A DNA stretch of 64,000 bases, taken from NCBI RefSeq assembly GCF_009914755.1, contig NC_060926.1; one strand, written 5' to 3'. The position numbers were made by a program, and so were the translations under genes. Under the pieces are notes generated by a model that had not been told where the DNA came from, ran no database searches, and worked only from the letters and a program-made list of their open reading frames with translations. The first letter of the stretch is position 1. Each line of letters starts with the position of its first letter. Positions 36,951 through 43,424 of this stretch are shown here, piece after piece. Source of the stretch: the human T2T-CHM13v2.0 reference genome, Homo sapiens.

Positions 36951-37601
36951 GATTAAGTTATAAAATCAAGATTTACCAAAGTTGAAAGTATACATTTTTT
37001 CACTCTCTTATAAGAGCATATTTGCATGTTCCTAAAAGAATCAATAAATATACTCTTATAATCCATACATGTTGGGTATTTACGTGTTAAAACTGAAAGT
37101 CTAATCTTGTGCTGTCTTTGAAAAACGGCTGTGTTGCTGTGGCTAAAGAATGCTTTACAGAAAAGAAGCATGGTATACTAATGTGAGAAAACGTGCTTTG
37201 TTTTTAAATGTGATGGTTTTCTTGGTGACATTTTGAAGTCAATCTTTTCTCTCTTGAATGACAGAATTTCTATATTAAGAGAGTATGTGGAGACAAATAG
37301 TGCCTCTCAGTTGCGCAAAGAAGCATATTTAGTATCCAACTACAGAATTCCACGGAAATTATAGAATCTTCAGTCCAGATTTAGGTACCAGAGTTAAGTA
37401 GAAATGGTTATAGAACCAGTCAGTAAGAGTATAGCATATACGCAGACCGCCACACAGAGAGTGAGGCATGTGCAAGAGAAAAAAAGTAAGAGTGTAGGAA
37501 ACAAAGAGTGCAGGAGGAAGAAGAGAGCAAATTGGTAATGATTCTGTAACCAGAGAAGCACTGGCATGAGTGAATAACTCAACTGTAAAGAAGTACAGAA
37601 T

Positions 37602-37720
37602 GGATGATAGATATCCCAATTACCCTGACTTAATAATTACACATTCTAATACTCATATGAAAATATCCCATGGATCCCCAAAATATGTACAACTATGATA
37701 TATGAATACAAATTAAAAGT
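37602..37720 (+). mobile_element. Short L1MA 3' end
   Basis: GATGATAGATATCCCAATTACCCTGACTT...AAATATGTACAACTAT; 11-bp TSD AAGTACAGAAT at 37591-37601 and 37721-37731. Confidence 0.85.
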
Positions 37721-37920
37721 AAGTACAGAATAAGTCATATCTATCATCACACATGCAATATCTCCCTTTTTAAAAAGTTCTCAATAAAATACCTTAATCA
37801 AATGTGGCTCAGTAATAGTAACACTGAATTTAGACAACTTTATCAATTATCTTATCACTAGAATGGTGTACAAGCGTGATAGTCTTTGATTGGGCATGAC
37901 CAGGAAAAAGTTGAGGGTTA

Positions 37921-38071
37921 CAAGACTGGTGACCCTCAAGAGAGGAGGTAACATTTGTCGGCCTTACAATTCTCAATATTGATGCATGCTGTGAAAGTGC
38001 AAGACATAAGTTATTCTCAATATTGTGAGACCATCAAATGTTACCTCCTCTCTTGAGGGCCACCAGTCTTG
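37921..38071. repeat. Inverted repeat with 50-bp arms (45/50 match) and 51-bp spacer
   Basis: 37921-37970 is the reverse complement of 38022-38071; the outer 37 bp match 36/37. Confidence 0.95.
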
Positions 38072-38664
38072 AGGCTCTCTTGAGAACTTCCTTCCAATAT
38101 TAGTCCATAGGACCTCCTGACACATTCACAAGAGAAACAGAGAGCAAGCTGAGTGACATTATTTTTATTCTCTTACTTGAGGGAATATATGTAATTTAGA
38201 ATGGATTAGATAGCTCTCCTGCATTGCTTTATTGAAGATATGTCTGGAGTCTGCAGTCAGAAATTAGTGAAGTCCTTCCTTATCCATCTGAAAATTTCAA
38301 GTTTCTCTAAAATTAAAACAAGAAATAGAAATAGTTTAACCAACGCAGAGACCAGACCCAACACACTAATGCAAATACCCCTTTCCTAGACTCTACTATG
38401 GTCGATTCACTTTTCCTTATGGTTCACTTCATGGCAAAGCTGTAATTATAATGCTTAGAAATGTTGACCTTTACTTAATGACTGACTCTCTCATGACCAA
38501 GATTAATGATTTGAAAGCCCAAATGCAGATGCTAACAAAAGATAAAGGTGTATCTATCACTTAATGCAATGAAATTTTATTCATTAAAGAACAAGAAACA
38601 AAGGCTGATTATATCTTCCTTCTTATAAGCTATTTAAAAACAAACAAACAAACAAACAAACAAA

Positions 38665-38776
38665 ATGATGTTTCGCTGTGTTACGCAGGCTGGACTTAAA
38701 CTCCTGGGCTCAAGCAATCCTTCTGCTTCAGCCTCCCAAGTAGCTGGGACTAAAAGTGCCCACCACCATTCCCAGC
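38665..38776 (-). mobile_element. FLAM Alu monomer, preceded by (AAAC)n at 38636-38665
   Basis: CAGGCTGGACTTAAACTCCTGGGCTCAAGCAATCC...GTAGCTGGGACTA; degenerate TSD TTATAA(G/A)CTA(T/C)TT. Confidence 0.85.
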
Positions 38777-39599: not shown

Positions 39600-39790
39600 A
39601 AGGAATCGGGCACTAATTCTGCTACCATCTTGGTGTACGATCTGACGCAAGTCAATGAATCACTATGCATCTCAACTCTTAGATCTAAAAGACAGAATAA
39701 TCAAGAATTTTATAAGACTCCAATGAGACAATTTATAAGAAAAAGCATTGAAAATAATGCATGCTGTGAGAGCGCAAGACATAAGTTATT
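39600..39790 (+). mobile_element. Very degenerate MIR remnant
   Basis: CTAATTCTGCTACC...GCAAGTCA...AATGAGACAAT...TAAGTTATT. Confidence 0.45.
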
Positions 39791-39995
39791 AAAGGGCTGA
39801 TATGTCAGGAATATCAGTAAGTTTCAGAATAAACTGTTACGGTCTATTCTTGATTTGGTTAAGGACATGAGGGTAAATATGCTTATGCTATTCCATTTTA
39901 TGGATAGCAGTGGTGAGAACCACTGTGGCCAAGAATTTTGTCAATTAATCTGCAAACTTTTCTGACCAATGCTTAGCACTATCAATCTAACTAAG

Positions 39996-39996
<1 letters not shown>

Positions 39997-40036
<40 letters not shown>
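39997..40036. repeat. (TG)20 microsatellite
   Basis: Perfect dinucleotide run. Confidence 0.97.
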
Positions 40037-43020: not shown

Positions 43021-43424
43021 TTTCCTAGCCCAGTTTTCTAAGTGTCAGCCAGCCCTGCACGATTACTTGAAGTTCTCAAAGTGGTGCAAGCTTCTTGCTT
43101 TAGAGCATCTATACAGTTGTTGCTCCTGGCTGATTCCTGTTGTCCCTTTTATAACTAAATAGGCTACTTACCTTTTGTTCTTTAAGACCCTCTTCACGTA
43201 TCACCTCCTCCTCCAGGGCTCTCTTCATCTCTGAAGGCTTTTTAGGAGCCTCCCTTCATTTTCTTTGAACATTAATGATACCACAGTCCTATCTCAATCT
43301 CTCACACCTGTCTACTCTCCCAAGTTTCTGTAAGAATCGACTAGTTCCTGTAATTGACAGCTATATGGTGTTACTATTAATTAGTCCCATTTGATTATAT
43401 CATTTCCTGACAGTCCCAAACACT

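What the first reader, a model, noticed from the sequence alone, without database searches (positions are those of the whole stretch)
37911..38084. Long fold-back whose loop holds a copy of DNA from 1.8 kb away: a multi-step template-switching scar
Seen: the arms 37921-37970 and 38022-38071 are reverse complements (45/50) and resemble no transposon terminus I recognise. In the spacer, a 13-bp direct repeat ATTCTCAATATTG (37969-37981 and 38013-38025) brackets ATGCATGCTGTGAAAGTGCAAGACATAAGTT. With the next ATT, that segment matches 39757-39790 at 32/34. Small local copies also sit at both edges: TTGAGGGTTA (37911-37920) is a 9/10 inverted copy of 37930-37939, and CTCTCTTGAG occurs at both 38048 and 38075. 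Established: fold-back inversions with short templated inserts from nearby DNA are signatures of polymerase-theta end joining or MMBIR/FoSTeS. Inference: one germline repair event built a new hairpin. If transcribed, it would give about 50 bp of dsRNA from either strand (possible ADAR or small-RNA substrate), and it could extrude as a DNA hairpin.
Basis: partly seen in the sequence, partly recalled or inferred. Interest (0 to 1): 0.8.

Follow-up and report, generated by a model that had tools for sequence, protein, structure and literature searches.

The report
Unique intronic hairpin with templated tip insert
A one-of-a-kind 50-base inverted repeat in an NRXN1 intron carries, exactly at its tip, a 31-base copy of DNA from 1.8 kb away, which is best read as an old, neutral scar of DNA-copying errors of a known kind rather than a gene or a transposon.

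Summary
The arms 37921-37970 and 38022-38071 pair at 45/50. It is the only inverted repeat of that quality in the 64-kb window. An exact 13-bp direct repeat brackets a 31-nt segment. With the next ATT, that segment matches 39757-39790 at 32/34.

In the whole T2T genome the 34-mer occurs only at these two places, and the arm sequences occur only here. The terminal 22-mer shows no excess over a reversed control. A neighbouring repeat piece gave 1616 candidates with the same tool. So this is not a detectable dispersed MITE.

Taking out the insert and one repeat copy in silico leaves a hairpin with a 7-nt loop. The duplicated 13 bp is that loop plus 2 and 4 nt, so the insertion hit the tip.

The arms are uneven: the outer 37 bp match 36/37 and the inner 13 bp match 9/13. 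This suggests more than one layer of events.

Best reading: a template-switch inverted duplication, followed by a microhomology (ATT)-guided templated insertion at the tip. Both are known kinds of mutation. Whether it took one event or several, its age and its conservation all need primate orthologues, which these tools lack. Of the two edge copies, only the right one is locally significant. No function is shown. Interest is low to moderate.

The parts
37921..37970 (.). Left arm of the inverted repeat. The outer 37 nt (37921-37957) are near-perfect; the inner 13 nt (37958-37970) are more diverged.
   Evidence: 45/50 overall, with mismatches at arm positions 12, 38, 39, 42 and 45.
38022..38071 (.). 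Right arm of the inverted repeat.
37969..37981 (+). Direct repeat, copy 1 (13 bp). In the in-silico pre-insertion hairpin it is the 7-nt loop plus 2 nt on the 5' side and 4 nt on the 3' side.
   Evidence: 13/13 exact; it lies at positions 65-77 of the 142-nt reconstruction; the loop is 7 nt.
37982..38012 (+). 31-nt templated insert. With the following ATT (to 38015) it is a 34-nt match to the donor.
   Evidence: 32/34. Both differences are transitions, one at a donor CpG.
38013..38025 (+). Direct repeat, copy 2. Its first 3 nt (ATT) are shared with the donor, giving a junction microhomology.
   Evidence: read directly from the sequence.
39757..39790 (+). Donor (template) of the insert, in the same orientation, 1775 bp downstream. 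No direct repeat flanks it.
   Evidence: only two places genome-wide; flanks read.
38048..38084 (+). Right-edge pattern. The 10-mer CTCTCTTGAG occurs at 38048-38057 and 38075-38084. It brackets 17 nt whose first 14 nt form the outermost part of the right arm.
   Evidence: family D9; local p about 0.004-0.008.
37911..37939 (.). Left-edge small 29-nt near-palindrome. It is present but within chance.
   Evidence: I7, 12/14; E 0.18; 144/2000.

Best explanation
This is a locus-specific mutational scar in an NRXN1 intron. It is not transposon-derived and not a gene. It was probably built in at least two steps by DNA-copying errors.

Step 1 (inferred). Replication template switching, meaning fold-back or inter-strand copying, turned unique sequence into an inverted repeat. 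It may have started from a small central quasi-palindrome. The result was about 50-bp arms closing a 7-nt loop.

Step 2 (inferred). Synthesis was disturbed at the tip of that tight hairpin. The growing strand left the template just after the 13-bp tip sequence and copied 31-34 nt from a site 1775 bp downstream in the same orientation. It then returned by pairing its terminal ATT with the ATT at the start of the tip sequence, 13 nt behind where it had left. The tip was therefore copied twice. This is a FoSTeS/MMBIR-type or serial-slippage switch.

What is shown: the anatomy, the uniqueness of both the arms and the donor, and the placement of the insert at the symmetry centre.

What is inferred: the order of events, the pathway and the neutrality.

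Consequence. The spacer grew from 7 to 51 nt, which should make DNA hairpin or cruciform extrusion less likely. The intronic RNA can still form a duplex of about 50 bp on either strand.
For: - Inverted repeat at 45/50, E 1.3e-13, and the only one of that quality in the window.
- Not a dispersed family. A BLAST-type search of the genome with 186 nt and with 901 nt found only the locus itself. The same tool gave 1616 first-look candidates for a repeat piece 300 bp upstream; 39 of the 40 scored hits were non-self, at 79-86% identity.
- The arm 30-mer at up to 3 mismatches occurs only as the two arms. The terminal 22-mer at up to 3 mismatches gave 8 hits, 2 of them the locus itself, against 25 for the reversed control.
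- The insert has a unique template: the 34-mer at up to 3 mismatches occurs at exactly 2 places in 3.1 Gb.
- Direction is donor to hairpin. The 13-bp exact duplication flanks the copy in the hairpin and nothing flanks the donor.
- There is a 3-nt ATT overlap at the right junction (read). The chance of 3 nt or more at either of two junctions is about 0.03.
- The insertion sits at the tip. Removing the insert plus one repeat copy in silico gives a hairpin with a 7-nt loop, and the duplicated 13 bp covers that loop.
- Layering. The outer arms match 36/37 and the inner arms 9/13 (Fisher p 0.013). The inner arms against the pooled other copy pairs (3/84) give p 0.006. The inner 9/13 is still above chance (p about 0.001-0.004).
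- Literature. Template switching makes hairpins in one step and is common: 53,666 putative events in genic regions of the primate lineage, of which 31,007 formed new stems (PMC10710096; abstract, section 9 and passages read). The four-point model is in PMC5453318 (passages). An inverted repeat with no spacer or a 12-bp spacer stalls replication, and one with a 52-bp spacer does not, as cited in PMC3300023 (passages).
Against: - No outgroup sequence could be examined. The ancestral states, the order of events and even which arm is the copy are all unknown.
- The left junction has no microhomology.
- Outer arms (1/37), insert-donor (2/34) and the 13-bp repeat (0/13) have statistically indistinguishable divergence (p 0.60). 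A single complex event is therefore not excluded.
- The clustering of arm mismatches is a post-hoc observation. A scan statistic gives only p 0.028 (562/20000).
- The genome search cannot see very old repeats. The donor region also found only itself, so an ancient, heavily decayed MITE is not excluded by similarity alone.
Confidence: 0.45

Rival explanations
1. This is the first reader's version: one complex event. A single stalled or broken replication intermediate switched templates several times. It went to the donor 1.8 kb ahead, back to the tip, then onto the complementary or nascent strand to make the second arm, and finally back to the original template. Arms, insert and duplications were all created at once.
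For: - The copy pairs have homogeneous, low divergence: outer arms 1/37, insert-donor 2/34, 13-bp repeat 0/13 (Fisher p 0.60).
- A second repeat-flanked patch at the right edge, with the 10-mer repeat locally significant, has the same layout as the centre.
- Multi-template insertions are described for MMBIR (PMC8421209, passages).
Against: - The inner 13 bp of the arms are much more diverged (4/13 against 3/84, p 0.006). One event does not predict this unless synthesis was locally error-prone.
- Fold-back priming across a 51-nt loop from a poorly paired inner stem is mechanistically awkward (inference).
Confidence: 0.25
2. This reading is a break at the tip of an existing palindrome followed by end joining, i.e. 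centre-break revision. The extruded hairpin or cruciform was nicked near its loops, giving a staggered double-strand break with 13-nt overhangs. The ends were filled in and joined by polymerase-theta-type or classical end joining, with a short stretch synthesised on, or captured from, the site 1.8 kb away.
For: - The insertion lies exactly at the symmetry centre, and the duplicated 13 bp equals the loop plus closing bases.
- A duplication flanking an insert is what filled-in staggered ends give (established knowledge).
- There is a 3-nt microhomology at one junction.
- Centre-break revision is cited as a known outcome for palindromes in mammalian cells (PMC3300023 passages). The primary paper, PMC262683, was not held.
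Against: - Symmetric nicks give mutually complementary overhangs that would simply re-anneal (inference).
- By recall, polymerase-theta templates usually lie within tens of bases of the break, not 1.8 kb away.
- One junction has no microhomology.
Confidence: 0.15
3. This reading is a relic of a palindromic non-autonomous DNA transposon (MITE) that later took an insertion in its middle.
For: - The overall shape is long terminal inverted repeats around a short centre.
- TA lies directly left of the left arm.
- TTGAG occurs at both outer edges, 37911-37915 and 38080-38084.
Against: - No other copy was found in the genome.
- The terminal 22-mer shows no excess: 6 non-self hits against 25 control hits.
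- The outer 37 bp of the arms match 36/37. A family that young should have other recognisable copies, unless the arms kept converting each other.
- The right flank lacks TA.
- The edge repeats are within or near chance.
- No Dfam library was available, so known termini were not compared.
Confidence: 0.07
4. This reading is a selected RNA hairpin in the NRXN1 pre-mRNA, such as an unannotated miRNA or endo-siRNA precursor, an ADAR target or a splicing-related structure.
For: - The fold is very stable on both strands (z -12.8 and -11.9).
- On the NRXN1 sense (minus) strand 48 of 50 arm positions pair, because 3 of the 5 mismatches become G-U.
- New miRNAs do arise from template-switch hairpins in introns (PMC10710096).
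Against: - No Rfam family reaches threshold. The best hit is plant MIR5020 at 40.7 bits against a gathering score of 73, on both strands alike, which is a generic long-hairpin hit.
- There is no RefSeq feature here (the hub's table).
- The stem is longer than the roughly 35 bp preferred for pri-miRNA (PMC10710096 text).
- Only 0.9% of suitable template-switch hairpins are annotated miRNAs (57/6,054, PMC10710096 section 9).
- A 3:1 split of wobble pairs between the strands is not significant.
Confidence: 0.05

Closest known systems
Template-switch mutations that create hairpins (Ripley's quasi-palindrome correction; the four-point model of Loytynoja and Goldman; Monttinen et al. 2023)
   Same: A reverse-complement copy of adjacent unique sequence gives a near-perfect stem. 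It is intronic and locus-specific, with no transposon involved.
   Different: The arms (37-50 bp) are longer than the examples seen in the passages read; the paper mentions events of 28 and up to 83 bases. The loop also holds a direct-orientation copy from 1.8 kb away, which the short-range inverted-copy model does not itself produce. The derived state could not be verified against an outgroup.
Microhomology-mediated templated insertions (FoSTeS/MMBIR, serial replication slippage; polymerase-theta end joining)
   Same: A short insert has an identifiable nearby template, a 3-nt microhomology at one junction, and a small duplication at the insertion site.
   Different: The second junction has no microhomology. 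The template distance of 1.8 kb is beyond the 100-bp search range used for MMBIR insertions in PMC8421209 and, by recall, beyond the usual polymerase-theta range. This one is an old fixed germline event, not a somatic or cancer event.
Centre-break palindrome revision and stabilised (asymmetric) palindromes such as PATRR variants
   Same: The change sits at the symmetry centre and lengthens the spacer from 7 to 51 nt. The literature read links such spacing to loss of replication stalling and of cruciform extrusion.
   Different: Described revisions are, by recall, mostly central deletions in much longer or AT-rich palindromes. Here it is a templated insertion with duplication in a palindrome of about 113 bp that is not AT-rich.
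Short inverted repeats ('minus self-chains') near NRXN1 deletion breakpoints (Chen et al. 2013)
   Same: A short inverted repeat inside NRXN1.
   Different: That study was seen only through a review (PMC4330246). Whether this repeat is one of its elements, or lies near a mapped breakpoint, is unknown.

Membership tests
Template-switch-generated inverted repeat | Reverse-complement copy of nearby sequence, longer than chance matches (over about 13 bp) | tested here: met
   45/50 overall and 36/37 in the outer part; E 1.3e-13; the only such repeat in the window.
Template-switch-generated inverted repeat | Derived state: the ancestor or outgroup lacks the repeat, and one switch explains the cluster of changes | not testable with these tools
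   No non-human eukaryotic genome is available. The list of 53,666 events from PMC10710096 is not in the supplements that could be opened.
Template-switch-generated inverted repeat | Not explained by a repeat family | tested here: met
   as the positive control. The limit of sensitivity is roughly 75-80% identity (one search shows that older repeats are not seen).
Microhomology-mediated templated insertion (FoSTeS/MMBIR/TMEJ) | The insert matches a nearby template that is otherwise unique | tested here: met
   32/34; 2 places genome-wide at up to 3 mismatches; the reversed control gave 0.
Microhomology-mediated templated insertion (FoSTeS/MMBIR/TMEJ) | Microhomology at the switch junctions | tested here: inconclusive
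   3 nt (ATT) at the right junction and 0 nt at the left. The chance of 3 nt or more at either junction is about 0.03.
Microhomology-mediated templated insertion (FoSTeS/MMBIR/TMEJ) | An allele or ancestor without the insertion exists | not testable with these tools
   No orthologues or population data are available.
MITE / DNA transposon | Multiple dispersed copies sharing the terminal inverted repeats | tested here: not met
   Only the locus itself was found. The terminal 22-mer gave 6 non-self hits against 25 control hits.
MITE / DNA transposon | Target-site duplication directly flanking the terminal repeats | tested here: inconclusive
   TA is present only on the left. A 5-nt TTGAG lies at offset positions. 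The flank matches are at chance level on the left.
MITE / DNA transposon | Termini matching a known superfamily consensus | not testable with these tools
   No Dfam or Repbase library is available.
miRNA precursor / Rfam RNA family | Match to a curated family at its gathering score | tested here: not met
   The best hit is MIR5020 (a plant family) at 40.7 and 39.8 bits against 73, on both strands.
miRNA precursor / Rfam RNA family | Small-RNA reads or processing evidence | not testable with these tools
   No expression data are available.
Centre-break palindrome revision | The rearrangement lies at the symmetry centre and increases the spacer or the asymmetry | tested here: met
   The in-silico pre-insertion fold has a 7-nt loop that lies within the 13-bp duplicated stretch. 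The spacer is now 51 nt.
Centre-break palindrome revision | A hairpin-nicking double-strand break as the initiating lesion | not testable with these tools
   This needs experiments.

The most novel reading that the evidence does not exclude
The locus is a recurrently template-switching spot where a hairpin has grown and then been disarmed in several steps. A small central quasi-palindrome seeded outward extension of the stem by fold-back copying. Both the base of the stem (the 10-mer repeat bracketing the outermost 14 nt of the right arm) and the tip (the 13-mer repeat bracketing the 31-nt insert) carry the same footprint of 'repeat, templated patch, repeat'. If so, it would be a natural germline record of the birth, growth and stabilisation of a palindrome, located inside the NRXN1 deletion-prone region. 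It might still act there as a replication obstacle or as a dsRNA source.
Probability: 0.2. Interest if true: 0.45.

Novelty: new member of a known kind. Interest (0 to 1): 0.25.

Why it matters
It is a clean, well-delimited example of two known mutational processes acting on one spot: hairpin creation by template switching, and a microhomology-guided templated insertion at the hairpin tip. It lies in a long neuronal gene whose 5' part is reported to suffer deletions associated with short inverted repeats; that report was seen only through a review.

It could serve as a teaching case, or as a test locus for dating such events across primates. It could also be used to ask whether spacer-lengthening insertions stabilise palindromes in the germline.

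By itself it does not change what is known, and no function is indicated.

Tried and rejected
- Chen et al. 2013 (PMC3591860) and Cunningham et al. 2003 (PMC262683) are not held. Both are known here only through citing papers.
- One literature search timed out and one had an invalid term.
- nhmmer searches of the hairpin, the right half and the donor region against the window found only each other and themselves. Everything else had E of 2 or more.
- Rfam gave only sub-threshold generic hairpin hits.
- L1-type target-primed insertion as the source of the 13-bp duplication was rejected on reading the sequence. The insert has no A-tail on either strand, and by recall the target does not look like an L1 endonuclease site.
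- Gene conversion between two old interspersed-repeat copies was rejected. The match has sharp borders at 34 nt, the 34-mer is unique to the two sites, and conversion does not explain the 13-bp duplication.
- By recall, the surroundings of the donor look like an old SINE of the MIR type. This could not be tested: no repeat library is available, and the genome search found only the locus itself. It is left as an untested lead.
- Outward extension of the arms beyond 50 bp does not hold. Only 6 of the next 30 positions are complementary. The extra pairs in the RNA fold rest on G-U wobble.
- The supplements of PMC10710096 that could be listed are small, and one is too large to read. Whether this locus is in that paper's event list is therefore unknown.

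Full report
**What is there**

- The arms 37921-37970 and 38022-38071 are 45/50 complementary, with 51 nt between them.
- The 13-mer ATTCTCAATATTG is exact at 37969-37981 and 38013-38025.
- It brackets a 31-nt segment. With the next ATT, that segment matches 39757-39790 at 32/34.

Against the whole window, blastn gives E 1.3e-13 for the arms and 1.5e-9 for the 34-mer. A census for ungapped 50-nt arms with at least 45 matches and a spacer up to 200 found exactly one case in the 64 kb, this one.

As single strands the 186 nt fold far better than shuffles.
- RNA: -94.8 kcal/mol on the plus strand (z -12.8) and -92.8 on the minus strand, which is the NRXN1 sense strand (z -11.9).
- DNA: -51.1 and -53.0 kcal/mol.

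**The small edge copies are uneven in weight**

The right-flank 10-mer CTCTCTTGAG (38075-38084, also at 38048-38057) is locally unusual. Only 7 of 2000 shuffled flanks and 15 of 2000 random 30-mers of the window matched the structure as well.

The left-flank copy is within chance (144/2000 and 195/2000; E 0.18).

The inverted repeat does not extend outward. Only 6 of the next 30 positions are complementary.

**Is it a repeat family?**

The window's own genome (T2T human, 3.1 Gb) could be searched.
- The 34-mer at up to 3 mismatches occurs at 2 places, the loop and the donor. The reversed control gave 0.
- The arm 30-mer at up to 3 mismatches occurs only as the two arms.
- A BLAST-type search with the 186-nt structure, and another with 37750-38650, returned only the locus and its own reverse-complement match. 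The first look found 1 candidate each time.
- As a positive control, the same tool with 37300-38650 found 1616 first-look candidates. It scored 40 of them. The 39 non-self hits all lay on query 302-438 (window about 37601-37738) at 79-86% identity.
- The terminal 22-mer at up to 3 mismatches gave 8 hits, 2 of them the locus itself, against 25 for the reversed control.

So no dispersed family shares these arms at moderate divergence.

There is a limit. The search cannot see very old repeats, because the donor region also found only itself. An ancient, decayed MITE is therefore excluded only indirectly, by the high similarity of the two arms to each other.

**Where the insert sits**

Taking out the 31-nt insert and one copy of the 13-mer, in silico and by coordinates, leaves a 142-nt stretch. 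It folds as one hairpin with a 7-nt loop. The 13-mer occupies positions 65-77, which is the loop plus 2 nt on its 5' side and 4 nt on its 3' side. The insertion and duplication therefore hit the exact tip of the palindrome and lengthened the spacer from 7 to 51 nt.

The donor has no flanking duplication, so the direction of copying is donor to hairpin.

At the right junction the donor and the second 13-mer share ATT. At the left junction nothing is shared. Three or more shared bases at either of two junctions has a chance of about 0.03.

**Divergence**

The arms differ at arm positions 12, 38, 39, 42 and 45: four transitions and one transversion. The insert differs from the donor by two transitions, one at a donor CpG.

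| Copy pair | Differences | Divergence | 95% interval |
|---|---|---|---|
| Arms, whole | 5/50 | 10% | 3.3-21.8% |
| Insert vs donor | 2/34 | 5.9% | 0.7-19.7% |

These two are not distinguishable (Fisher p 0.70).

The arms are heterogeneous, however. The outer 37 bp match 36/37 and the inner 13 bp match 9/13.
- Fisher p is 0.013. A scan statistic gives 562/20000.
- The inner part is also more diverged than all other copy pairs pooled (4/13 against 3/84, p 0.006).
- It is still more alike than chance (p about 0.001-0.004).

This suggests one of three things: an older central quasi-palindrome that was later extended outward, or later re-homogenisation of the outer part, or error-prone synthesis next to the tip event.

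The pooled 3.6% (0.7-10.1%) for the young pairs would, by recalled primate neutral divergences, place the copying tens of millions of years ago rather than recently. This is an inference with wide error.

**Mechanism**

The best-supported account has two parts.

First, replication template switching (fold-back or inter-strand copying) produced the inverted repeat from unique sequence. This is a known and frequent process. PMC10710096 reports 53,666 putative events in genic regions along the primate lineage. Of these, 31,007 made new RNA stems and 6,054 were of miRNA size, of which 57 are annotated miRNAs (abstract, section 9, passages). The four-point model is in PMC5453318.

Second, at the tight tip the nascent strand switched to a site 1775 bp downstream and copied 31-34 nt. 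It returned by ATT microhomology 13 nt behind its point of departure, which duplicated the tip. This is the FoSTeS/MMBIR or serial-slippage pattern.

A break at the hairpin tip repaired by end joining with a templated filler (centre-break revision) gives the same product. It cannot be separated from the replicative route by sequence.

It does not predict the diverged inner arms.

Literature read in passages links spacer length to behaviour. [quoted passage not shown] The insertion therefore probably stabilised the locus (inference).

**Function**

Nothing indicates a gene.
- Rfam gives only sub-threshold, strand-symmetric hits to a plant miRNA hairpin family (40.7 and 39.8 bits against a gathering score of 73).
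- RefSeq lists no feature here (the hub's table).
- On the NRXN1 sense strand 48 of 50 arm positions can pair, three as G-U. On the other strand 46 of 50 can pair.

A duplex of about 50 bp in the intronic RNA is therefore plausible. Editing or small-RNA production is untested.

**Context**

The locus lies in an NRXN1 intron, about 274 kb from the gene's upstream end by the hub's coordinates. A review reports that Chen et al. 2013 found inverted short self-chains over-represented near NRXN1 deletion breakpoints (PMC4330246, passages). The primary paper was not available, so any link to this repeat is open.

A catalogue of unspaced human palindromes counts 783 that are 100-200 bp long (PMC7680136, passages). 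The pre-insertion form would have been uncommon but not exceptional.

**Verdict**

The interpretation as a template-switch or repair scar is supported in kind, but not in its 'single event' and polymerase-theta specifics. It is a new instance of known mutational mechanisms and of modest interest. The decisive test is a primate and mammalian alignment of the locus, which could not be run here.

Noticed in passing
window 37591-37748: A piece of a dispersed repeat about 119 bp long (about 37602-37720) gave 1616 first-look candidates genome-wide; the scored copies are 79-86% identical. By recall it looks like the 3' end of an L1. It is flanked by an exact 11-bp direct repeat, AAGTACAGAAT, at 37591-37601 and 37721-37731, which is probably its target-site duplication. 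In addition, 12 nt at its 5' edge (37603-37614) are a perfect inverted copy of 37737-37748, just beyond the downstream repeat. That pairing is unexplained.
   Followed up: partly
window 38638-38776: There are sub-threshold Rfam hits on the minus strand to metazoan SRP RNA (34.6 bits) and to mir-1268 (47.4 bits). This suggests an Alu-type fragment. It lies next to an (AAAC)6.8 microsatellite at 38638-38664.
   Followed up: no
window 39997-40036: A perfect (TG)20 microsatellite lies about 200 bp downstream of the donor segment.
   Followed up: no
window 37795-37824 and 43368-43397: A 30-nt inverted match (26/30, E 9e-4 within the window) of unknown meaning.
   Followed up: no
window 39640-39840: By recall only, the sequence around the donor resembles an old SINE of the MIR type. 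No repeat library was available to test this, and the genome search found only the locus itself.
   Followed up: partly
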